A DNA stretch of 64,000 nt from Bacilli bacterium (GCA_017540455.1 JAFYAZ010000039.1:5587-69586), one strand, 5' to 3'; counted from the first letter of the stretch, positions 675-11,500 are shown. Numbers and translations: made by a program. The notes: a model not told the origin generated them from the sequence alone.

Positions 675-1982
675 CTATAGTTTGGCGAGAAGTTTGGCTC
701 TTCTGACATAGTCAGTGACCTGGATCTTCGAGGTGCAGCTATAAGTGCAAAGACCGCATTCGATGCATTTGAGAGGCTCTAAGAGCTTGATCGTGTCTTT
801 GTCCATGGCCTTGACCGCGTTCATGATCTGAACCGGGCGAAGGTGGACTGGGCAAGAAAGGACGCAAGAGCCGCATCTGATGCAGTTCTCTTCCTTTGAT
901 TCATCATGGTCGAGGACGATGATCGAGGTGACGGTCTTCGTGCAGATGCAATCGTCCGATGGGATTGAGGCGCCCATCATCGGACCGCCGAGGATGAAGA
1001 CCTTCTTCCTCTCTGGGTGGACGTATCCACCGCATTTCTCGAGGATGTACTTCATTGGGGTGCCGACTCTGATCGAGAAGTTGGATGGGTATTTGATCGC
1101 ATCGCCGGTGACGGAGACGAAACGCTCAATGACCGGTTTGTTGTATTTGACGTTCTGAAGGAGGCCGACGACGGTGCTGACGTTGAAATCGACGATGCCG
1201 TATTCGCTTGGGAGATGGCCTGAGGCCACTTCGATGCCCGTCGCGCTCTTGATCATGGCGATTTCCCAGCCCTGTGGGTAGAAGTTGCCGACTGGGCAGA
1301 CCTTGATGCCGGAGTCTGGCATGGCGCGCAAGAACTCATCGTAGATGGCGATGATGTCTTTGTATTTGCTCTTGATGCAAAGCCTCGCGTCTTTGGTGCC
1401 AAAAGCCTGCTGAAGGAGCTTGATGCCTTCGATGACCTCTTCTGGCTTCTCAAGCATCATGCGCTTATCGGCGGTGATGTATGGCTCACATTCGACGCCG
1501 TTGATGAGGATGGTTTTGATCTCACGTCCTTTGGTGTCGAATTTGATGTAGGTTGGGAAGGAGGAGCCGCCTAAGCCGACTGAAGCGCATTCCTTGGCGA
1601 TTTGCATGAAGTCTTCTCTCGTGAGCTTAGCGATTTCCTCAGGGGTCCTCTCATGGACCACTGTCTCATCCTCTTCCTCTTTGAAGTCGTTTTTGATGTG
1701 GATGAAGTTCACCATCTTGCCAGAACGGTGAAGGTGTTTCTCGAAACCGAGGAAGGTGCCGCTGACGGTCGAATGGATCGGTTGGTCGAAGAATGGGCCG
1801 TGTCTCATGCCGATGACTTGGTACATCTTGACATGGTCCCCTTCTTTGATCGTTAGGTCCGCTTTCGGGCATCTTGCGTTCTCGAGGGCAATAAAAATAT
1901 CTTCTGGTTCTCCGATATCCACGGTCGGAAGGATCTCTAGAAGATTTCTTGTGTTCTCAATGTGTGTTGTCTTCGCAATCAT
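675..1982 (-). CDS. rnfC: Rnf electron-transport complex subunit C
   Basis: 435 aa. It has the GGSSFPTYIK and INGVECEPYITAD motifs and two C-terminal 4Fe-4S ferredoxin motifs (CIRCGSCVLSCP, CIECGLCTYSC), which is typical RnfC architecture. rnfD follows it. Confidence 0.85.
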   Translation of the reverse strand: MIAKTTHIENTRNLLEILPTVDIGEPEDIFIALENARCPKADLTIKEGDHVKMYQVIGMRHGPFFDQPIHSTVSGTFLGFEKHLHRSGKMVNFIHIKNDFKEEEDETVVHERTPEEIAKLTREDFMQIAKECASVGLGGSSFPTYIKFDTKGREIKTILINGVECEPYITADKRMMLEKPEEVIEGIKLLQQAFGTKDARLCIKSKYKDIIAIYDEFLRAMPDSGIKVCPVGNFYPQGWEIAMIKSATGIEVASGHLPSEYGIVDFNVSTVVGLLQNVKYNKPVIERFVSVTGDAIKYPSNFSIRVGTPMKYILEKCGGYVHPERKKVFILGGPMMGASIPSDDCICTKTVTSIIVLDHDESKEENCIRCGSCVLSCPVHLRPVQIMNAVKAMDKDTIKLLEPLKCIECGLCTYSCTSKIQVTDYVRRAKLLAKL

Positions 1983-2118
1983 TTTTGTCTCCAGCTTATG
2001 CTGGTCCGAATTTTGTACCCTAGTATTTTATCCTATCGGTAAAAAAGTAAAACCCTTTTATATCAATAAAAGAATAACGGTTTGCTTCTTTCCAAATATC
2101 TGACTTTTACTTAAGGAG

Positions 2119-2149
2119 AAAAAAGCCCCCTGCTTCTAAGGCAAAGGGC
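2119..2149 (-). terminator. intrinsic terminator downstream of the S41-like lipoprotein gene
   Basis: The minus-strand hairpin is GCCCUUUGC-cuuagaa-GCAGGGGGC, followed by a U-run (A-run 2119-2124 on +). Confidence 0.6.
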
Positions 2150-2176
2150 TATTTCATAAAGGTTTTGCAATGGTTT

Positions 2177-3880
2177 TTATTCCGCTATCGAGTTGATCGC
2201 GCTTAAGAGGGCCGCGCTATCGTAGAAGTCTTCGTAAGCAAAGTCGACGTCTGGTTCAATGCCATGCTCGATCGAGAGGAAATCCTTCTCGCCGTTTTCC
2301 TTTTCCCCGATGTGCCTCATCGTGTAGGTTGAGCTGATGGTAATGCCTGTGCCATCGGCTAAGACGAGGGAAAGGACGCTGCAGGTTCCACCGCCGGACT
2401 TCTTTCCGATGATTTTTCCTAGATTCATGTCTTTGAAGGTGCTGCTCATGAGGTTAGCGGCGCTGAAAGTGTTTATGCCGGTGAGGAGATACCAATCATA
2501 TTCGTCATATGCGTCTTCGTCCTCATAGTCGTCATCCCCATCGATATCGACGACATAGCTATCGGTGACGAATTCGTTATCTAATGTGTCATAAGTGGAT
2601 AAAGGAATCTTCTCATCGGTCAAAAAGCCAGCGACTTTTTCCATGGCCGCCAAAGAGCCACCGCCATTGAGGCTAAGATCAAGAACGATCTTATTGATTC
2701 CTCCATGGTTCTCAATCTGATTCATGCAGTAATGCATGTAGTGATATGAATCATATTTCCAAGCATCATCTTTCACGTTGTGATCTTTGTCATAGATCTG
2801 CGCGATCGTGCCTACGGAGAAAGAGTCTAAGGTGATGATGGCCATATCATCTTCGAACCTCACTTCTTCAGGACTCGTGAGCACCGCGTCCCTCAGTTCT
2901 TTCTGAATGGCTCTTCTGTCGTAGAACTCACCATAGAAATCACCGAAGTCATTTCTAGTGACTTTCGCTAAGTCAGGATCGCAATAGTAGGATGGGAGAT
3001 CGATTCTCGTATGGAGTTCGTCTAATTGCTTATAGACGATATCCTTGTATGCGGAGTAGTTATCTAGCGGTTTGGATGAATAAAGCTTATTGAGGGTGGC
3101 CTCATCAAGATAATCGATGAAATGCGTATACCCTTTCTCTTCTTTTAGGCCATAAAGAACATCAAAGGTGAAGCAAAGAGAATTGACCGCGGCTTCTCTC
3201 ATCGATTTGGTCTCTGCTTTCTTGTTGTCTACACAGTTATAGTACTGAGGAAGGTTCCTTACTTCCCCAACGGTGACGAAGATCTTTGACCCATTGTAGA
3301 AGAGATTTAGTCCACCCATTGCGCAGAAAAGGGTATTGAGGACGAAGAGAGGCAGCCAGACCATCTGATACCCATCTATGACTTCGAAGCCGTAATCATC
3401 GAGGTCAATCTCAAAAGTCGCGTCTCTATCATAAAAGTCGTTCGTTCTTTCTAAGTGTTCGTTGTAGTTGGTGCTAGAAGCTGCAGCGGAACACCAAAGG
3501 AATTCATAATAGCTAGCGGCCTTTATCGTGTTATCGGTGCTATTAAAAACAATCGGATGGGATTTTCGGTAATACAAAGTGAATATGTCATCGTAATAAT
3601 TGGTTTCATAGGAGAAATTGCCATAGTCGAAATACCCTCTGAAGGCATATAAGAACTCCCATAGTCTTACGTAAGGAACATCCTCGTATTCATTGAAATA
3701 ATGAACGTCAAGTTTGTCTCCGGCGATGTAGTAGTCATCCTCCGCCAGATTGACGATTTGCAGTTCTTTTACATAACAATCCGTTTCAGTGTCATCGACA
3801 AAGCCACAGCCAAAAGGGAAGAAGAAGCAGCTTGAAAGCAACAAAGAAGCAAGAGGGATAAGCAAGAGGCGTTTCTTCAT
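2177..3880 (-). CDS. lipoprotein, S41 (C-terminal processing/tail-specific) peptidase-like
   Basis: 567 aa. The signal is MKKRLLLIPLASLLLSSC (lipobox LSSC). The C-terminal half has LDLSLNGGGSLAAMEKVAGFL, TFSAANLMSSTF and IIGKKSGGGT, which resemble S41 peptidase core motifs (N.GG, SA.E, G..T.G.G). Confidence 0.55.
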   Translation of the reverse strand: MKKRLLLIPLASLLLSSCFFFPFGCGFVDDTETDCYVKELQIVNLAEDDYYIAGDKLDVHYFNEYEDVPYVRLWEFLYAFRGYFDYGNFSYETNYYDDIFTLYYRKSHPIVFNSTDNTIKAASYYEFLWCSAAASSTNYNEHLERTNDFYDRDATFEIDLDDYGFEVIDGYQMVWLPLFVLNTLFCAMGGLNLFYNGSKIFVTVGEVRNLPQYYNCVDNKKAETKSMREAAVNSLCFTFDVLYGLKEEKGYTHFIDYLDEATLNKLYSSKPLDNYSAYKDIVYKQLDELHTRIDLPSYYCDPDLAKVTRNDFGDFYGEFYDRRAIQKELRDAVLTSPEEVRFEDDMAIITLDSFSVGTIAQIYDKDHNVKDDAWKYDSYHYMHYCMNQIENHGGINKIVLDLSLNGGGSLAAMEKVAGFLTDEKIPLSTYDTLDNEFVTDSYVVDIDGDDDYEDEDAYDEYDWYLLTGINTFSAANLMSSTFKDMNLGKIIGKKSGGGTCSVLSLVLADGTGITISSTYTMRHIGEKENGEKDFLSIEHGIEPDVDFAYEDFYDSAALLSAINSIAE

Positions 3881-3920
3881 AGGATGATTTTACAATAAAC
3901 GCTTAACGAAAAACCATAGC

Positions 3921-3989
3921 AAAAAGCCCCCTACTACTTAAGTAAGGGGCTAATTCATGCAGGATTTGCTAGGGATTATTTGGCTTCAG
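3921..3989. repeat. 69-bp direct repeat, copy A (left boundary of inserted island)
   Basis: 3921-3989 matches 8481-8549 at a constant offset of 4560 nt, with 2 mismatches (3952 a/g, 3988 a/g). It contains the hairpin GCCCC-C-TAC...GTA-A-GGGGC with a flanking A-run, which is a minus-strand terminator. It also carries an orphan copy of the last codons plus stop (..EAK*) of gene 8536..11613. Confidence 0.9.
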
Positions 3990-3992
3990 GAT

Positions 3993-4217
3993 TTATAAGG
4001 TATCCGAATTGCCGCTTTTTTTGAGACGATCCTCATACAAAGAGAAAAGGTAGAGGGCCGATTCGCCATATAAACCCGTCTCATCGTCATCGAGCAAATC
4101 GACGACCTCGGAATCATAGAGTCTTTTTCTCGCTTCTTCGAGGCTTAAACCATATTTCTTTGCGATGAGCTCAATGGTCCCTGTTATCAATATGGTTTTT
4201 GCGATTGTGTGTCCCAT
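3993..4217 (-). CDS. small hypothetical protein (possibly DUF3791-like)
   Basis: 74 aa. Its start overlaps the stop of the upstream 105-aa gene by 1 nt. The pattern IELIAKKYGLSLEEARKRLYDSEVVDLLDDDETGLYGES resembles the small helical DUF3791-type proteins of Firmicutes. This is recalled from memory and not verified. Confidence 0.4.
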   Translation of the reverse strand: MGHTIAKTILITGTIELIAKKYGLSLEEARKRLYDSEVVDLLDDDETGLYGESALYLFSLYEDRLKKSGNSDTL

Positions 4218-4534
4218 TATTTGGTGCCTTCCGATAATCTTTTGCCAATGTATTCGTTGATTGCGTCCGCGGACATGCCGTGCATATCTTCGTAATCGTC
4301 TGATAGTTCTTTGATGACTCCATTTTCGTCGAGGTCTCTGAAAACCTCTCTGCTACTCTTTTCGGCAAAAGAGGCATATTGCTCAACGCACATAACGATG
4401 AATCTGTTAATTTCCTTATCAAGAACCATGTTGACGCGACTTTTTCCTCTAATAAGTGAACCTTCATTCAACGCTTTTTCACGTTTTTCAGCCTTCAATA
4501 AGAACGACCGATCATTGATTTTTCGTTCAGACAT
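4217..4534 (-). CDS. small hypothetical protein (possibly DUF3791-like paralog)
   Basis: 105 aa. The segment FIVMCVEQYASFAEKSSREVFRDLDENGVIKELSDDYEDMHGMS has the same helical pattern as its downstream neighbour. It is co-oriented with the helicase gene. Confidence 0.4.
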   Translation of the reverse strand: MSERKINDRSFLLKAEKREKALNEGSLIRGKSRVNMVLDKEINRFIVMCVEQYASFAEKSSREVFRDLDENGVIKELSDDYEDMHGMSADAINEYIGKRLSEGTK

Positions 4535-4624
4535 TTACATTTCCTATATTCACGTAGTAATGTTGGCATATTTTATTACGAATTTAAATACGCGATGCAT
4601 CAAATCATAGGGTCTTGAAGAGTT

Positions 4625-7600
4625 CTATCCCTTTTCTTTGTGATTACACCTTGGGAAATTATGGCATCCATAGAACGGACCATATTTACCTTTTCTTAGA
4701 ATCATGAAATCCCCACACGAAGGACATCTCTTATTTCTTAAAACGGCTTTTGCGTCATCGATCGTATAGTCACAATAAGGATAGTTCGAACAACCATAAA
4801 ACTCTTTACCATTTGACTCATTTATCCTTAAGACTAAACGTCCTTTCTTGCACCGCGGGCACGAAATATCAGTCCTCTTCTCCTCTTCCGTGTGTTTGCC
4901 ATTCAAAACGGCGCATTGATCTTTTATCTCCTCAAGGAAAATTGAAGGGTAGTACTCGTTTGCAATGATGTATGTATAGCTTCTAGTTCTCGTTAAGGCG
5001 ACGTACCATAGACGTCTTTCCTCCGCGTAATCGTATTCGCTCTTGTGACTCAAGACCAAATCAAGAAGCTCATCATCTTCCATCTTGTTTGGGAAACCAA
5101 TTCTGTCGTCGTTCGCGTTAAGAAGAATGACGTAATCCTCTTCGAGGCCTTTGGATCCATGAACTGTGCTGTAGGTTAAGTTGATATCAGGGAAGAAAGA
5201 GCACTTCAAAACCGTCTTGGTCTCGCTTGAAGCTTTGTAGTCAATGCGAATGCGGTTGTCTAACATGATGTCCTCAAGATCTCTGTTGTTTCTTCCTAAA
5301 ACAAGCACGTTCGCCTTTTCTTCTCTCCTAGAGATATCGCTTAGTACATCAAGGAAAGGTTCATACTTCTTTCTCCCTGTGTAATACATAATTTGGACGG
5401 GATTTGCTAAGTGTTTTGCGGAATTGATCTTCTTATCGTATTGTTCCGGATTCTTTTTTATGAACGGGCCAGCGATGTCTTGAAGTTCCTGTGAATTTCT
5501 ATGGGTGGTCGTTATCATCGTGATAGCCGAATCGCCAAAGTATTTTTCGAATTCCAAGAAGATACTTAGATCGCATCCTGAAAACCTGTAGATAGCTTGC
5601 CAATCGTCTCCGACTGCGAATAGCCGCGAATCGCCTTGCAAGATCAACCTCTTTAAGAACTTCATCCTACTAACGGAAATATCCTGAAATTCGTCGACGA
5701 TGATGTATTTATACTTGTAGCCTTTGCAGTTATTGAGCTCTTCAGTTGATTGAAGGATCATATCATCGAAGTCGATTTTTCCTTCTTTTGCCAAATAAGC
5801 GATGTAGTAGTCGTAAATATCTTTGACGATATCAAGGAAAAGGGACGCTCTATGCTTCTCATAAGCGTTTTTGAATGGAGAGCTCTTCAGTTTTTCAAAT
5901 CCGCTATTGTCCCTGTATGAGGCTTTGTATAAGCTCAGGAACGATCTGACTAAGTTAATAAAAGATTTGAAAGAGTATGTCTCATAGACGGAATTAAGGG
6001 CATTGAGGATTTCTTCGTCTGGAAGCGGGTGAAACTCCACTCCCCTTTCTTTCAATTGCGATTCAAGCTTTTCAAAGACGGTGCCATCTTCAAACTCGTA
6101 CGAATATGTTTCTATGCAGTCGGTCTGATATACCTTGTGGATGCCTCTTTTCCAAATCATGGAATTCACATATTGAATAGCTTCTTCCCCGGCATACTGC
6201 GAGGCCTTGCCATCCTTATCAACTCCGTAATGTTCATGATAAATTGGATAATCCTTTAATTTGAAATCTGGCATGTATTGCCTTTTGTCCAGTGTAGAAA
6301 CGTCTTTTTCATAAGGTGCTTCGTATGTGTATTTGATGCCGTTTATGAAATACCAGTTCGCAATAGCCATCTCTTCGAATGACTTAACGAGCTCCTTTTT
6401 GAGTGTCTCTTTAGAGGCAACATTATTAGACAGAGTGAGCAATTGATCTTTAAGAGTTGTGAAATCTAGGCTCTTTAGGTCTTCAAAAAGATCGCCTTCG
6501 TTCTCGTATTCTTTGTCATGCTTCATCGTGGAAAGATACAAGCCGTAGTACATAAGGATGGTTTGAAGCATGTGCGGCCTGTTTTTCATCTCTTCCCTGA
6601 AATAGGCTTCTATGATGGCTTTGTATTGATCCTCCACCATGAATGTGTGGTTACGTGCGTCTTTTAAGATATCGAGACCGATTTTATGGAATGTTCCTAC
6701 TGTTAGCCTCTGGTCTATGGCTGACACTTTTTTCTGGAGATCATCAGCAGATTTTTTTGAATACGAAAGAAGGAGGATATCATTAGGATTCACACCCTTT
6801 TTCTTCAAGAGATATTCGACCTTGCCACATATGGTAAGAGTCTTTCCGCTTCCGGCCCCCGCCACAACAAGAACTGATTTTTCATCAGTCAAAACGGCCT
6901 TTCTTTGTTCATCGTCGAGAAAGCGGCCATTAATGTCATCAAATAGTTGGTCCTTTTTGGCTCGCTCAAAGTATTCTTGGTTATGTTTTTTTACTGCTTC
7001 ATCGAGGTTTGTATGCCTTTCAAAAGCCTCGGATAAATACTCCTTGAAAGTTATTTTCTTCAGCAAATCCGCACTTTTTGATGCAGTTTCACGCTGTCTC
7101 TCACGATCTACATATTCATCTTCGGAAAAAGCAAAGAGTTCTCTATGCTGACAGAGAAGATCGTATTGGTGACAAATTTCTTCGTAACCGATTCTCACCT
7201 TCTCAATGCCACTTAAAAAGGAGGAGTATGACTTCTCGGTAATTCTATATTTCTTAAGCAAATCTGCTACTTCAAGACATTCCGAAAAGAATTCTTTGTC
7301 GGTGTGATTAGGGTTTTTGATGAATGTTTCTAAGTTCCACCACATGACCGCTTCTCTAATGCGGCCCACTTCTTTATTGTGCTCAGCTACCTTTTCAGAA
7401 AAAGCGCCATATTTCGCCTTATCTTTTTTGTACTTTTTGGGAGGAAGCAGCGTGATCTCTTCATAGATGGAAACTATTTTGGGGTCAGTCTCTTCGTTAA
7501 CGATTTCCAAAAAACGGCCCTGTTTCTTGATGTTTCTAAAATATGGCCTGAAAACAGTAAGAACTTTGAAATATAGCTTTAGCCGTCCAAAGATATTCAA
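4625..7600 (-). CDS. helicase IV/UvrD-like SF1 DNA helicase with embedded nuclease-like motif and two C-terminal topoisomerase-type C4 zinc ribbons
   Basis: 991 aa. SF1 motifs are Walker A VVAGAGSGKTLT, motif II IIVDEFQDIS, motif III VGDDWQAIYRFSG, TVHGSKGLEEDYVILL and YVALTRTRS. There is an internal YMPDFKL...YHEHYG (PD-(D/E)xK-like) segment. The C-terminus has CPRCKKGRLV..FYGCSNYPYC and CPSCGDFMIL..FYGCHNFPRC. Confidence 0.8.
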   Translation of the reverse strand: MNIFGRLKLYFKVLTVFRPYFRNIKKQGRFLEIVNEETDPKIVSIYEEITLLPPKKYKKDKAKYGAFSEKVAEHNKEVGRIREAVMWWNLETFIKNPNHTDKEFFSECLEVADLLKKYRITEKSYSSFLSGIEKVRIGYEEICHQYDLLCQHRELFAFSEDEYVDRERQRETASKSADLLKKITFKEYLSEAFERHTNLDEAVKKHNQEYFERAKKDQLFDDINGRFLDDEQRKAVLTDEKSVLVVAGAGSGKTLTICGKVEYLLKKKGVNPNDILLLSYSKKSADDLQKKVSAIDQRLTVGTFHKIGLDILKDARNHTFMVEDQYKAIIEAYFREEMKNRPHMLQTILMYYGLYLSTMKHDKEYENEGDLFEDLKSLDFTTLKDQLLTLSNNVASKETLKKELVKSFEEMAIANWYFINGIKYTYEAPYEKDVSTLDKRQYMPDFKLKDYPIYHEHYGVDKDGKASQYAGEEAIQYVNSMIWKRGIHKVYQTDCIETYSYEFEDGTVFEKLESQLKERGVEFHPLPDEEILNALNSVYETYSFKSFINLVRSFLSLYKASYRDNSGFEKLKSSPFKNAYEKHRASLFLDIVKDIYDYYIAYLAKEGKIDFDDMILQSTEELNNCKGYKYKYIIVDEFQDISVSRMKFLKRLILQGDSRLFAVGDDWQAIYRFSGCDLSIFLEFEKYFGDSAITMITTTHRNSQELQDIAGPFIKKNPEQYDKKINSAKHLANPVQIMYYTGRKKYEPFLDVLSDISRREEKANVLVLGRNNRDLEDIMLDNRIRIDYKASSETKTVLKCSFFPDINLTYSTVHGSKGLEEDYVILLNANDDRIGFPNKMEDDELLDLVLSHKSEYDYAEERRLWYVALTRTRSYTYIIANEYYPSIFLEEIKDQCAVLNGKHTEEEKRTDISCPRCKKGRLVLRINESNGKEFYGCSNYPYCDYTIDDAKAVLRNKRCPSCGDFMILRKGKYGPFYGCHNFPRCNHKEKG

Positions 7601-7616
7601 AGCTAATCACCTCAAG

Positions 7617-8354
7617 TTACTCGTTTATCATTCCTTTTTTGTAGAACTTGAGCTTTCTGCTCATGGAAGCGTTGATGTCCATGATGTCTTTCTCTTCTAA
7701 GCAGATGACGGTGACTTTGAGCTCCTTATACACCTTCATCTTGTAATTCTTCGATTTGGTGTATTCTTTGTTGCTCTCGTTGTATCCCCAGTATTCGATA
7801 TAAACATCATCTGTGTCGTCTCCATAGCCAGGGAGGCAGAAATCAGGATGAAGGTCATGATTCTCATTGGCGTCAATCGGAAGCTTTTTCTCGTAAGCGT
7901 GAGGAATGTTATGGTCAAAGAGCCAGTTGTCGATGATCATCTCGGACTTTGATTTAACGATGTGGCCGTCGGTGCAAGTGAACTTGCCCTCGTAGGAATC
8001 GTCAAGGATGGTGATGTCCTTGCATTTGTTGATCTCGACAAGCAACTTCTTATCGGCATATTTCTTGTAACAGGAAACACAGAAAAGGAATCCTGGCTTG
8101 GTTTCTTTACCGCAGGCAATGCATTTGGCAACACCCTTTTGCTCCTGAATAGGTTTTTCCTCTTTAGGCTCGACATAATCCTTGTTGAGGACTTTGCCAG
8201 TCGCTTTATCGATGAAGAGGCCTTTTTCGTTGACCACAATCTTTTCGGCCTTGAGTTCGTCGGCATGCTTGGCGCAAAGCCTGTCTTTGCGGGCATTGCC
8301 CATATAGACTCTCGTAGGTTGTCCACAGATAGGGCACTTCAACTCTTCCTTCAT
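7617..8354 (-). CDS. zinc-ribbon protein with C-terminal PD-(D/E)xK (Vsr/DUF559-like) nuclease-fold domain
   Basis: 245 aa. It has CPICG...C..H and CIACG...CVSC zinc-ribbon pairs. The C-terminal SKSEMIIDNWLFDHNIPHAYEKKL...HPDFCLP...VYIEYWGY matches the S.SE / YE / PDF / hEhhG pattern of restriction-endonuclease-fold domains. A GGGAGG RBS precedes the start, which lies 16 nt upstream of the helicase gene. Confidence 0.6.
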   Translation of the reverse strand: MKEELKCPICGQPTRVYMGNARKDRLCAKHADELKAEKIVVNEKGLFIDKATGKVLNKDYVEPKEEKPIQEQKGVAKCIACGKETKPGFLFCVSCYKKYADKKLLVEINKCKDITILDDSYEGKFTCTDGHIVKSKSEMIIDNWLFDHNIPHAYEKKLPIDANENHDLHPDFCLPGYGDDTDDVYIEYWGYNESNKEYTKSKNYKMKVYKELKVTVICLEEKDIMDINASMSRKLKFYKKGMINE

Positions 8355-8480
8355 AACGATATGCCTCCCTTGGTTGGCTTAATGGAGAACTTAAGTATCT
8401 CCATTGTTGTTTTGGTTTTCTGGAAATATATTAGCAAAAAGGAGGCGACGATTAATAGGTTTCCTTACAATCCGTTTAGA

Positions 8481-8549
8481 AAAAAGCCCCCTACTACTTA
8501 AGTAAGGGGCTGATTCATGCAGGATTTGCTAGGGATTATTTGGCTTCGG
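8481..8549. repeat. 69-bp direct repeat, copy B (right boundary of island; functional 3' end and terminator of gene 8536..11613)
   Basis: See copy A. This copy includes the stop codon at 8536-8538 and the last four codons of the 1025-aa gene. Confidence 0.9.
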
Positions 8550-11500
8550 TTGTTTTGGAGCCGTAGTTAAGAACCTTGACGAAGTCTTCCTCAGTCATTG
8601 GACGACCGAACAAGTAACCTTCAAGTCCTTTGGCGCCAAGAGAGATGGCAAGATCCCTTTGCTCAGCGTTCTCGATACCGGTGACGTAGATGTCGAAGTC
8701 GTTTCTCATCGCTGCATCTAGGAAGCGTGAGAAGTTAGCAAGCTCGTTTTCGTTCGTGGCCGCATTCCAGATGAGAGATCTCTCGGTCTTGATGATATGG
8801 ACGCCGAAGGATTTAAGGACCTCAAGAGGAACCTTATCTGGCGTGTGGTCGACACATTCGAAGACAACGCCAAGAGGCGTGAGCTCGGACATGACCTTCT
8901 TGATGGCCTCTTCCTCGTCGAGGAAGAAGGCGCTATTGATTTCAAGATGCATGTACTCACGTGGGAAGCGGTTCCTTTCGAGAATGGCTTTGACCTTCTC
9001 TGGGAATTCTGGGTCCCTAAGGGAGTCGATGGAAAGATACATCGAAAGACACTTGATGCCGACGGCTTTGAAGATGCCTGAACCATATAAGCTATAGAGC
9101 TGACCCATCATCGAGATGGCGCCGATATCGACGCGGGAGACGAGTTTTTCTTTGTTCGCGATAGGAATGAATTCACGAGGAGCGATCGGGAGTTTGTCAC
9201 GTCCATAAAGGGCGGAACGGATATCGCCTCCGATGACCTTGAGGGTGCCGCAGTCGACGATTGGCTGAGTGAGGATCGGAAGGGCGTCAGCGTCAAGCGT
9301 AGCCTGGAGGATATCGAGGATGTACTCGCTTCTCAGGGCTTTTCTTGGGTGGCGGTTTGCGACCTCGACGACATAGCCTGGGCCATAGGTCCTCTCACTT
9401 CTGATGAGCTCGTCTTTGATGGTCTGGACCATTTGCTTGGTGGTGACGATTTCAGATGGGTATGCGACGGCGCAGAAAGCGTAGTTGGCGTTGTATCTGA
9501 ATTCCCTGGCTTCAAGAGGATGGGAAAGGATCTCCGCCGCTTCTTCGACGAAGTCCATCATCTTGATCTTGGTGTAGCCCTTAAGGAGGAAGGAGATGCT
9601 ATATGTGTCGAACCTGTAAAGGAGTTCGCCATAGCCAGCATCCTGGAAGTTGGCGACGATGGAGGACATAAGCGAGTTCGCATCGGACTGCGGGAGCTCT
9701 CTTAAGGCCGCCTCGTAATCGACGAGGGAGCAAGAGACGATATAACCGCGGGCGGTCTTGGCTTTGAGCTCACGGTTGACATCGATTGAAAGAGCCTGGG
9801 CGTTCTTGATGAGGAGGGAATCATCGACAAGATGGCTTCCGGCGACAAGGCCTTGGGTCGTGCCACGCTCGATCATGATGGTCGATTCGTCGTTATTCGC
9901 TCCACGGTACTGGAGAATCGAGATCTGGGATTCGGATGGGCCGATGCTTGGGATGACACGGTGATCAGCGCCGTATCTAAGAGGGCAATGGCTGCATGGT
10001 TTGTCATGGCCTGTACGAAGTACCTTGTAGCAGATATCGCCTTCGTGAGCGCCTGGGAAGGCGTGCTTAAGGTTATCCGACATGTAAGTGATCGTATGGG
10101 TCGGACGGTCGACGGAATAGAGGTATCTGCTGGTTCTAGAGGCAAGGTTATCGAGAAGGTCATGGAGGGAATCGTCTCTCTTAGCGAGGATGTTGCCGAT
10201 GAGCATGTTGCTGAAGAAAGAGACCGCGGTCATGAAGTCTTCTTTGCTAGAAATCGAGGTTCCACTTCTCTTATTCGGAGAAAGCATGTAGATGAAACCG
10301 TAGTCGTTATTTGGGGAATCAAGGGTGGCGATGAAGAAAGACTCCATTCCTAAGGAAAGGATTGGCTCTGCGAGTTCTTTTGGAAGATCGGTGCGGGCGT
10401 TGCCGACGAACATCGTGTCTTTCTTCGCTTCGTTCACAAATGGGCCGACGAATGATAGATGGAGAACGGAACCGAAACGGGAGAAGCCTTTGTTTCCTTC
10501 GACACGAGCAGTCTCAAAGAGGAGACGGTAGTCTCTTGTCTTCTCACCATATTCATAGACGCCGGCGACTTCAAAATCGCTTTGGGTCATGAGCCACTGG
10601 ATGGCGTTCTTCAGGGCTTCGATCTCGCCTGCGTAATCCTTCGCGTGCTTGATCTCGTATTCCCATTTCTCGAAGTTGGCGAGGAAGAGAATGCGTTTGG
10701 AGGATTCGCTTAAGATGCGGTGAGGATAGTAGACGTCTTTGACGCCGTAGCTGAGATTGACTTCCCCTTCTTCTTTGAGGGCTTTCTCAGCTTCATCTAA
10801 GAAGTTATTGAGGGAGCAATACGGATAGATGACTCCGCCGATTTTGGCATGGACAAACTTCTCAACTGAAGTCGACTTATCGATCTTCAAAACGTTGAAA
10901 TTCGTGACAAATCCCTCACAAACCGTCTCTAAACCGAGGAAGGATTCGACGTTGAAGATATAAAGGGCGAGGGTCTTTTCATCGTATTTGCCAAGCATCG
11001 AATGAGGGAAGGTTTCTCTCACTTTGGCGGTCAAGGCTTCGAAGTCTTTTTCTTCGTAGGTCTTCGCGCCCTCTAAAGAGATCAAGAGGAGAGCGCTTCG
11101 ATATGAATCGTTCTTCTGGACTTCTTTCTTTAAGTTCTCGGTGAATGTCTCTTTGTCATAGACAAGACCCTGTTCGATGTCTTTATTGATAGCCTCGTCG
11201 CTAGCTTTGCCAACATAGACAAGACGGTAGTTGGAATAGTCGGCGATCGCCTGGTTCATCTGCTGCTGAATCTCAGTGAAAGCAGGGAGAACCTTGTCAT
11301 AGTCCTTGTTGATGGTCAAGAAGTTGCCATCGGCGAAGCTTCTGATCTGGGAACTGATGTCTTTGGCGAGCTTATCACCTTTCCTTGTGTAATCAAGGCC
11401 AAGATGGATGATGGTGACCGCAACCGTCAAAGCGGAGATGAGGAGGACGCCAAAACTCACCCATAAAAGGATTTTGTTCTCAAAATAGTAGGCAAATGGG

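What the first reader, a model, noticed from the sequence alone, without database searches (positions are those of the whole stretch)
4625..8354. Zinc-ribbon/PD-(D/E)xK nuclease + helicase IV-like gene pair: candidate two-gene anti-phage or DNA-surveillance module
The two genes are 16 nt apart and lie in the inserted island.

The first is a 245-aa protein with two Cys4-type ribbons and a Vsr/DUF559-like endonuclease-fold C-domain (SKSE..YE..PDF..YIEYWG).

The second is a 991-aa SF1 helicase. It has a ~230-aa unknown N-domain, an internal second PDF...E.YG nuclease-like insert and two topoisomerase-type zinc ribbons.

Nuclease plus UvrD-like helicase pairings are the logic of several known defence systems, such as Gabija and Hachiman. 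This domain combination does not match any named system that I can recall. That is a memory-based statement and not a search result.
Basis: partly seen in the sequence, partly recalled or inferred. Interest (0 to 1): 0.6.

Follow-up and report, generated by a model that had tools for sequence, protein, structure and literature searches.

The report
Mobile helicase-nuclease cassette with small nuclease partner
Two neighbouring accessory genes of an uncultured rumen bacterium encode a DNA-unwinding motor with a DNA-cutting domain built into it and a small zinc-binding protein with the same cutting domain; they move together as a cassette and probably attack foreign DNA, but this is untested and each gene is usually found without the other.

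Summary
The two ORFs sit at the stated coordinates, 16 nt apart, in a 40%-GC insert bracketed by 71-nt direct repeats.

The 245-aa protein has two zinc ribbons and a restriction-endonuclease-fold domain. That domain matches the untested PADLOC candidate PDC-S69. It has no Pfam, PDB-sequence or phage match.

The 991-aa protein is an intact helicase IV-like SF1 helicase with:
- a poorly conserved helical N-domain;
- an inserted paralogue of the small protein's nuclease domain (hhalign 97%);
- two topoisomerase-type zinc ribbons.

The two-gene reading is only partly supported. The pair travels as a unit: the same cassette lies at another site in a congener, four more pairs occur in relatives, and one pair occurs on a gammaproteobacterial plasmid. 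However, about 55 of 65 nuclease loci lack the helicase. None of the 15 other helicase loci in sampled genomes of the phylum has the nuclease. The nearest relatives lack both genes or carry the nuclease alone.

Best reading: a self-sufficient helicase-nuclease with an optional small nuclease partner, a candidate member of the nuclease-NTPase defence class. The defence role is inferred from context only. This scan has noted the same family on other DNA before.

The parts
8477..8547 (-). Upstream copy of the 71-nt terminator-like repeat (3' end of the EAL gene plus hairpin and T-run); left boundary of the insert
   Evidence: Direct repeat 97% identical to 3917-3987. Terminator-like hairpin at 8511-8485. 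The junction with the cassette in G448 falls inside this element.
8355..8476 (-). 5' leader / putative promoter region of the cassette, with RBS AAGGGAGG before the ATG
   Evidence: Read. The block 'tttgctaatatatttccagaaaac' is conserved in L001. No Rfam match. No promoter was shown.
7617..8354 (-). 245-aa zinc-ribbon plus restriction-endonuclease-fold protein (PDC-S69-related)
   Evidence: The family has 1400 representative clusters at E<=1e-3.
8262..8342 (-). Zinc ribbon 1 (C7, C10, C27, H30)
   Evidence: Alignments. AF2 pLDDT 80-93.
8058..8129 (-). Zinc ribbon 2 (C78, C81, C92, C95), invariant in the family
7641..8006 (-). Nuclease domain, residues 117-238. Invariant residues include K134, S135, K136, E138, H152, Y154, E155, D171, E187, W189, G190, K205 and Y209.
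4625..7600 (-). 991-aa helicase IV-like SF1 helicase with embedded nuclease domain and two zinc ribbons
6926..7600 (-). Poorly conserved all-helical N-terminal domain (residues 1-225)
   Evidence: No family match. Mean identity 28%, against 68-74% for the motor, over 44 homologues. Helical in the AF2 model.
6047..6394 (-). Inserted nuclease-fold module (residues 403-518), a paralogue of the small protein's C-domain. K406, S407, E410, Y426, E427, D445, E456, K484 and H488 are invariant.
   Evidence: hhalign probability 97.2, E 3.7e-11. Invariant columns. Weak PDC-S68/S69 hits.
4628..4915 (-). Two topoisomerase-I-type C4 zinc ribbons (residues 896-991)
   Evidence: Pfam PF01396, 1e-20, two stretches. 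Cysteines 914/917/937/943 and 959/962/979/985 are invariant.
4217..4534 (-). 105-aa DUF3791 protein (PDC-M13A-like); a separate cassette in relatives
3993..4217 (-). 74-aa DUF3791-like protein (PDC-M13C/B-like)
3917..3987 (-). Downstream copy of the terminator-like repeat; right boundary of the insert and terminator of the four-gene unit

Best explanation
The two genes form a small mobile cassette that encodes a nuclease-NTPase type DNA-conflict module, most likely anti-phage or anti-plasmid.

The helicase is the core and can work on its own. It is an ATP-driven SF1A (UvrD/helicase IV-like) translocase, and a restriction-endonuclease-fold domain is inserted where domain 1B sits. Its two topoisomerase-type zinc ribbons would hold DNA, the motor would reel DNA in, and the built-in nuclease would cut it. 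The fast-evolving helical N-domain would be a sensor or regulatory module.

The 245-aa protein is an optional partner. It carries a paralogue of the same nuclease domain on two zinc ribbons. It may supply a second active site, for example by pairing with the embedded domain so that both strands are cut, or it may act alongside the helicase independently.

Shown here by computation:
- the architecture, with intact motor and nuclease motifs;
- homology of the two nuclease modules;
- the operon layout;
- accessory, mobile distribution and recurrence of the pair.

Inferred, not shown: nuclease and helicase activity, physical interaction of the two proteins, the DNA target, and the defence phenotype.
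For: - Intact motifs. The SF1 motifs (Walker A, DEFQD, GDDWQ, R701, VHGSKGLE, YVALTR) and the insert residues are invariant in 45 homologues. The small protein's polar core is invariant in 61 homologues.
- Shared module. The two nuclease domains are homologous. The same domain is fused C-terminally to another helicase-type candidate, PDC-S68.
- One transcription unit. The only terminator-like hairpins on the coding strand lie before the nuclease gene and after the second DUF3791 gene.
- The pair moves as a unit. G448 has the cassette between S41 and rnfC instead of after the EAL gene, with the helicase core 96% identical in nucleotides.
- More pairs. Gaps are 5-17 nt in L009, L016, L122 and L123. 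A full-length PDC-S69 protein sits 55 nt after a homologous helicase on plasmid NC_016108.
- Accessory distribution. The nuclease is in 3 of 24 congeners (1 of the 3 a weak partial match) and the helicase in 2 of those 24, which are different genomes. Four of the five nearest relatives searched lack both. GC is low.
- Defence-like context of nuclease homologues. Neighbours include Type ISP R-M, Cas9, a Type III REase, HNH, AbiEii-like ATPases, integrases and HTH_3. PDC families were defined by being embedded in known defence systems.
- Recurrent linkage. Nuclease homologues are also linked to other SF1 helicases that carry DUF2726 nuclease domains, and to a stand-alone DUF2726 protein.
- Class precedent. 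Nuclease plus SF1/SF2 NTPase operons are an established defence class in which complex formation is general.
Against: - No experiment exists. PDC-S69, PDC-S68 and PDC-M13 are explicitly untested candidates.
- Most nuclease homologues lack a helicase neighbour, and most helicase homologues lack the nuclease.
- Neighbours of 14 other helicase loci are mostly housekeeping genes, with only a few defence-like ones.
- Structural matches for the nuclease are weak, with best E 0.036.
- The canonical lysine of the (D/E)xK motif is replaced by W or Y. The proposed alternative lysine (K205 in the small protein, K484 in the insert) is an inference.
- The nuclease stays 85-93% identical while the helicase N-domain drops to 28-46%. 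There is therefore no co-variation that would point to an interaction through that domain.
Confidence: 0.5

Rival explanations
1. The two genes are independent accessory genes that merely lie next to each other in a cassette hot spot. Each acts alone, and there is no physical or functional coupling.
For: - Each gene is usually found without the other.
- The nuclease stands alone at the same locus in L001 and G012.
- The locus accumulates and permutes unrelated cassettes: a DUF3791 pair, an AAA_14/DUF4143 ATPase, and S41.
- The divergence rates of the two genes are discordant.
Against: - Gaps are 5-17 nt with no terminator between the genes.
- The pair is moved as one unit to another site in G448.
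- An independent reversed-order pair occurs in another phylum.
- The two genes share a homologous nuclease module, and the nuclease family is repeatedly linked or fused to SF1 helicases.
Confidence: 0.25
2. The helicase is a housekeeping-type enzyme. It would be either a helicase IV involved in recombinational repair or a HelD-like factor that recycles RNA polymerase. The small nuclease would be a repair accessory.
For: The best NCBIfam family is helicase IV. HelD-RNAP structures appear among the Foldseek hits, and the N-domain is helical like that of HelD. Many helicase homologues sit among housekeeping genes.
Against: - The helicase IV score is 313 against a cut-off of 543.
- UvrD, PcrA and Rep match better than HelD.
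- The family is present in only 15 of 399 sampled genomes of the phylum and is patchy within the genus.
- The gene lies in a low-GC mobile cassette that the nearest relatives lack.
- An N-domain that binds the conserved RNA polymerase should not be the least conserved part of the protein.
Confidence: 0.12
3. The cassette is a selfish element. The nuclease, helped by the helicase, cuts at or near the terminator-like repeat and promotes insertion or spread of its own cassette, in the manner of a homing or TnsA-like endonuclease.
For: - No recombinase lies in the insert.
- Each cassette ends in the same ~50-nt element, which occurs only at this locus.
- A cassette holding the nuclease alone is bracketed by duplicated repeats in L001.
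- TnsA is among the best structural matches, with probability 0.93.
Against: - DUF3791 cassettes are bracketed by the same repeats in genomes that lack the nuclease, namely G450 and G337.
- Nuclease homologues elsewhere sit in many unrelated contexts.
- The TnsA match is weak, at E 0.13.
Confidence: 0.08

Closest known systems
PADLOC phage defence candidate PDC-S69 (with the related PDC-S68 and HEAT_CxxC_PD-DEXK models)
   Same: It has the same C-terminal nuclease domain (8.5e-27; profile positions 173-284 of 289). A full-length PDC-S69 protein lies next to a homologous helicase on plasmid NC_016108.
   Different: The N-terminal 170 positions of the PDC-S69 profile are not matched; this protein has two zinc ribbons there instead. 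PDC-S69 is listed as a single-gene candidate and is untested.
E. coli DNA helicase IV (HelD; NCBIfam NF008276/PRK11054)
   Same: It is the best-scoring curated family. It shares an SF1A motor with an N-terminal extension, an insertion in domain 1A/1B and no large 2B domain.
   Different: The score is 313 bits, below the 543-bit cut-off. This protein has an inserted nuclease-fold domain and two C-terminal topoisomerase-type zinc ribbons, and it lies in an accessory mobile cassette. From memory, E. coli helicase IV has neither the insert nor the ribbons.
Nuclease-NTPase defence systems (Hachiman HamAB, Gabija GajAB, Nhi/Nhi-like, Hna, Hhe)
   Same: The logic is a PD-(D/E)xK-type nuclease working with an SF1 or SF2 helicase in a one- to three-gene operon, in either gene order (Hachiman abstracts listed).
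   Different: There is no HamA or GajA hit, and the GajB hits reflect only generic UvrD homology. Here the helicase itself carries the nuclease, and the separate nuclease is its paralogue. The Hhe/Nhi type uses an AAA_11/AAA_12 motor, not a UvrD-type motor.
TnsA (Tn7) and Bax1 (partner of the XPB helicase)
   Same: They are the best structural neighbours of the small protein's nuclease domain. Bax1 is a nuclease that works bound to a helicase.
   Different: The matches are weak (E 0.036-0.17, TM about 0.3), there is no sequence similarity, and the zinc ribbons are absent from both.

Membership tests
Gabija | GajA OLD/Toprim ATPase-nuclease encoded beside GajB | tested here: not met
   The small protein hits only PDC-S69, PDC-S68 and HEAT_CxxC_PDDEXK, with no GajA hit.
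Gabija | GajB-type UvrD helicase of about 500-600 aa | tested here: inconclusive
   GajB models hit at up to 137 bits, but in 2-3 partial stretches that cover only the shared UvrD core. The protein is 991 aa with extra domains.
Hachiman | HamA (DUF1837) nuclease plus HamB SF2 helicase | tested here: not met
   No HamA or HamB model appears among the PADLOC hits shown. The helicase is SF1 UvrD-type.
PDC-S69 (PADLOC candidate) | Full-length match to the 289-position profile | tested here: not met
   Only profile positions 173-284 are matched. The plasmid protein of L090 matches positions 1-289 at 356 bits.
PDC-S69 (PADLOC candidate) | Shared C-terminal nuclease domain | tested here: met
   E 8.5e-27 and 92.5 bits. 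The nuclease domain is 40% identical to that of the plasmid member.
DNA helicase IV (NF008276 equivalog) | Score at or above the curated cut-off of 543 bits | tested here: not met
   313 bits in 2 stretches.
PD-(D/E)xK / restriction-endonuclease fold | Alpha-beta-beta-beta-alpha-beta core with conserved acidic residues on helix 1 and strands 2 and 3 | tested here: met
   The AF2 model gives H136-147, E172-174, E184-188 and H196-212. E138, D171 and E187 are invariant. Most of the top Foldseek hits are REase-fold proteins, though weak.
PD-(D/E)xK / restriction-endonuclease fold | Lysine two residues after the strand-3 acidic residue ((D/E)xK) | tested here: not met
   The position is W189 in the small protein and Y458 in the insert. 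A lysine from the next helix (K205, K484) is proposed as a substitute, by inference only.
SF1A UvrD-like helicase | Conserved motifs I, II, III, IV, V and VI | tested here: met
   Pfam UvrD-helicase 2.9e-42. The motif residues are invariant in A5. Foldseek matches UvrD and PcrA at 1.8e-17.
HelD-type RNA-polymerase recycling factor | N-terminal coiled-coil arm that enters the RNAP secondary channel, and binding to RNAP | not testable with these tools
   The N-domain is helical, and HelD chains rank only 25th and lower. Binding cannot be tested here.
Hhe / Nhi-type single-protein helicase-nucleases | AAA_11/AAA_12 (Upf1-like) motor fused to a nuclease | tested here: not met
   The motor is UvrD-type. 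AAA_11 scores only E 0.015, below its cut-off.

The most novel reading that the evidence does not exclude
The small zinc-ribbon nuclease is a trans-acting paralogue that pairs with the nuclease domain embedded in the helicase. Together they would form a two-active-site, ATP-driven, translocating DNA-cutting machine, with specificity or activation set by the fast-evolving N-terminal domain of the helicase. This would be a previously undescribed two-component architecture within the nuclease-NTPase defence class. The widespread solo helicases would then be its one-component form.
Probability: 0.2. Interest if true: 0.65.

Novelty: new variant of a known kind. Interest (0 to 1): 0.42.

Why it matters
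Helicase IV-like proteins with a built-in nuclease form a very large family: more than 5700 clusters at 90% identity were scored in this search. They occur across bacterial phyla and on plasmids, and no experimental study was found in the literature searched.

The small nuclease family has 1400 representative clusters, reaches Asgard archaea, and is equally unstudied.

If the cassette is shown to restrict phages or plasmids, three things would follow:
- a new architecture would be added to the nuclease-NTPase defence class;
- PADLOC's PDC-S69 and PDC-S68 candidates would gain a function;
- a compact motor-nuclease would become available for mechanistic work.

The locus also shows gene cassettes being swapped at a terminator-like repeat with no recombinase nearby. 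That may be of separate interest.

Tried and rejected
Searches with the small protein that gave nothing useful:
- Pfam and NCBIfam gave only sub-threshold zinc-ribbon noise.
- A PDB sequence search gave nothing meaningful.
- PHROGs and GenBank phages gave no match, and IMG/VR gave one weak match, so it is not a typical phage gene.

Other searches that led nowhere:
- Rfam on 1900-8800 found nothing.
- The sigma-70 promoter scan was no better than shuffled sequence.
- Literature searches for PDC-S69/S68, DUF2726 with defence, and helicase IV with anti-phage found nothing that describes these families. The END-nuclease paper turned out to be unrelated.

Technical failures and limits:
- The first attempt to scan genome contigs with the diverse alignment A1 failed for lack of a conserved stretch. 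It was redone with A2.
- dN/dS for the helicase N-domain could not be computed. Synonymous sites are saturated in three comparisons, and my G448 N-domain codon frame was wrong. The frame was corrected only for the nucleotide identity scan.

Readings rejected:
- Gabija and Hachiman membership was rejected.
- A conserved core-genome repair module was rejected.
- The terminator repeat is not a genome-wide REP-like element: it has only 3 copies, all at this locus.
Full report
**What is there.** Two co-directional ORFs lie on the minus strand at exactly the stated coordinates. One is 7617-8354 (245 aa, ATG start) and the other is 4625-7600 (991 aa, TTG start preceded by GAGGTG). The gap is 16 nt. 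Two small ORFs follow: 4217-4534 (105 aa) and 3993-4217 (74 aa). Both are DUF3791-like and match the PADLOC candidate PDC-M13. On this strand the only terminator-like hairpins lie just after the upstream EAL gene (8511-8485) and just after the second small ORF (3951-3925). The four genes therefore look like one transcription unit. GC is about 0.40 at roughly 3500-8000, against about 0.47-0.54 in the flanking DNA. The insert is bracketed by 71-nt direct repeats that are 97% identical (3917-3987 and 8477-8547). Each repeat holds the last codons of the EAL gene plus the terminator.

**The small protein.**
- It has a C3H ribbon (C7, C10, C27, H30), which is C4 in many homologues. It also has an invariant C4 ribbon (C78, C81, C92, C95).
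- Pfam, NCBIfam, PDB-sequence, PHROGs and GenBank-phage searches give nothing meaningful.
- PADLOC matches its C-domain to the candidate PDC-S69 (8.5e-27, profile positions 173-284 of 289), to PDC-S68 and to HEAT_CxxC_PD-DEXK.
- An AlphaFold2 model built on 61 homologues has mean pLDDT 86. It shows the helix, strand, strand, helix order of a restriction-endonuclease core.
- Foldseek against the PDB finds only weak matches (best E 0.036). Most of the top matches are restriction-endonuclease-fold proteins: Bax1, TnsA, PspGI, McrC, TagI, Card1, FAN1 and Shedu SduA.
- E138, D171 and E187 are invariant. The usual lysine two residues after E187 is an invariant tryptophan. K205 and Y209 on the next helix are invariant and may replace it, but that is my inference.
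- The family is large, with 1400 representative clusters at E<=1e-3. It is mostly Firmicutes of gut and rumen, with nuclease-domain-only relatives in Asgard archaea.

**The helicase.**
- Pfam finds UvrD-helicase (2.9e-42), UvrD_C and two topoisomerase-type zinc ribbons (1e-20).
- The best curated family is DNA helicase IV, but at 313 bits against a cut-off of 543.
- All SF1 motifs are invariant among 45 homologues.
- The full-length model (pLDDT 84) matches UvrD, PcrA and Rep best (1.8e-17). HelD-RNAP structures rank 25th and lower.
- Residues 403-518 are inserted where domain 1B sits and are homologous to the small protein's nuclease domain (hhalign probability 97.2, E 3.7e-11). The equivalent residues K406, S407, E410, Y426, E427, D445, E456, K484 and H488 are invariant.
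- The N-terminal 225 residues are all-helical and match no family. They are by far the least conserved part, with mean identity 28% against 74% for domain 1A, 70% for the insert and 68% for the rest of the motor.
- The architecture is widespread. More than 5700 clusters at 90% identity passed E<=0.001 among the 8000 candidates scored. Homologues about 33% identical occur on Acinetobacter and Methylotuvimicrobium plasmids.

**Are the two genes a unit? Evidence for.**
- Congener G448 carries the same nuclease-helicase cassette, with the helicase core 96% identical in nucleotides and 98% in amino acids. There it lies between the S41 peptidase gene and rnfC rather than after the EAL gene. Both junctions fall at terminator-like repeats.
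- Further pairs with 5-17-nt gaps occur in L009 (the same contig as G448), L016, L122 and L123. L024 has a looser pair.
- On the Methylotuvimicrobium alcaliphilum plasmid a homologous helicase is followed after 55 nt by a full-length PDC-S69 protein (356 bits). This is a cross-phylum recurrence in the reverse gene order.
- Homologues of the small protein are also directly linked to other helicase-nuclease proteins. AAA_11/AAA_12 helicases with C-terminal DUF2726 occur in L011, L019 and L021, and L022 has an upstream ORF of the same size (915 aa) that I did not scan. A stand-alone DUF2726 protein occurs in L004-L007 and L018.

**Evidence against an obligate pair.**
- Of about 65 bacterial species-representative loci encoding the small protein, only three, plus the window itself, have the helicase next door.
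- None of the 15 other helicase loci in sampled genomes of the phylum has a stand-alone nuclease. All 15 were checked within 1.5 kb and 14 of them within about 7 kb.
- L124 and L125 carry a 68%-identical helicase without the nuclease.
- At the very same EAL-S41 locus, L001 and G012 carry the nuclease alone, bracketed by its own duplicated terminator.
- Among 24 congeners the nuclease is in 3 (1 of them a weak partial match) and the helicase in 2, and these are different genomes.
- Of the five nearest relatives searched, only G448 carries the pair. G450, G002, G004 and G337 lack both genes, although three of those four genomes are only 83-85% complete.
- The nuclease remains 85-93% identical where the helicase core is 73-79% and its N-domain 28-46%. 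The two genes do not co-vary.

**Context.**
- Immediate neighbours of nuclease homologues include a Type ISP restriction-modification enzyme, Cas9, a Type III restriction enzyme, HNH nucleases, AbiEii-like ATPases, four integrases and ten HTH_3 proteins.
- Neighbours of 14 other helicase loci are mostly housekeeping genes. Only a few are defence-like: three Schlafen-type helicases, two ResIII and one Cas9.
- PDC families are 145 explicitly untested candidates defined by being embedded inside known defence systems (Payne et al., bioRxiv 10.1101/2024.01.29.577857).
- Nuclease plus SF1/SF2 NTPase operons are an established defence class in which complex formation is general (Ragucci et al., bioRxiv 10.1101/2025.07.10.664194).

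**Interpretation.** The best reading (confidence about 0.5) is a mobile nuclease-NTPase type conflict module. The helicase is a self-sufficient motor-nuclease and the small protein is an optional paralogous nuclease partner. Activity, interaction, target and phenotype are all inferred. The rivals are:
- two unrelated neighbours in a cassette hot spot (0.25);
- a repair helicase or a HelD-like factor (0.12);
- a selfish cassette-mobility function (0.08).

It is not Gabija or Hachiman, because no GajA or HamA is present. It is not an equivalog of helicase IV. It is not a full-length PDC-S69.

**Earlier notes of this scan.** The scan has described the same helicase family many times, and the same pair once on other DNA, with similar conclusions. 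My results were obtained independently and agree with them.

**Verdict.** This is a new variant of a known kind and is of moderate interest.

Noticed in passing
window 2116-2186, 3917-3987, 8477-8547; L001 9725-9830, 10722-10827, 14020-14125; L123 6250-6355, 10980-11085, 12800-12905: A ~50-nt terminator-like element (consensus roughly CAAAWCCTnnATGAAWTAGCCC, hairpin, GGGGGCTTTT) ends every cassette at the EAL / S41 / rnfC locus. It has only three copies in this genome, all at this locus. Relatives show the cassettes in different orders and combinations: nuclease alone, nuclease plus helicase, DUF3791 pair, AAA_14/DUF4143 ATPase. No recombinase is nearby.
   Followed up: partly
window 3993-4534 (-); L123 6381-7057: The two small ORFs are DUF3791-like and match the untested PADLOC candidate PDC-M13A/B/C. 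They form a separate cassette that is present without the nuclease and helicase in G450, G337 and G011. In L123 the first one carries an N-terminal HTH_3 domain.
   Followed up: partly
L011 2144-4849; L019 4243-6963; L021 4241-6988; L004 10796-11734: Homologues of the small nuclease sit next to, or overlap, ~900-aa AAA_11/AAA_12 helicases with a C-terminal DUF2726 domain. These helicases have a Mokosh-like core in PADLOC. Other homologues sit next to a 312-aa DUF2726 protein. This suggests a wider link between this nuclease family and helicase-nuclease proteins.
   Followed up: partly
L075-L087: Asgard archaea (Promethearchaeota, Hodarchaeota, Hermodarchaeota) encode ~130-180-aa proteins about 40% identical to the nuclease domain alone, without the zinc ribbons.
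   Followed up: no
window 4625-8560 compared with G448 (L009, L121): Divergence within the cassette is mosaic. The leader and the first two thirds of the nuclease gene are 72-85% identical in nucleotides. The nuclease 3' end and the helicase start are 92-95%. The helicase core is 95-100% and the zinc ribbons 89-93%. This points to recombination inside the cassette.
   Followed up: partly
L001 12702-14033; L124 905-2178: An AAA_14/DUF4143 ATPase gene is another cassette at the same hot spot in L001. In L124 and L125 a gene of this type sits 60 nt upstream of a 68%-identical helicase.
   Followed up: no
window 2177-3880 (-): The S41 peptidase lipoprotein gene is itself low in GC (about 0.44). 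It ends in a copy of the same terminator-like element and changes position relative to the EAL gene among relatives, so it may also be a cassette.
   Followed up: no
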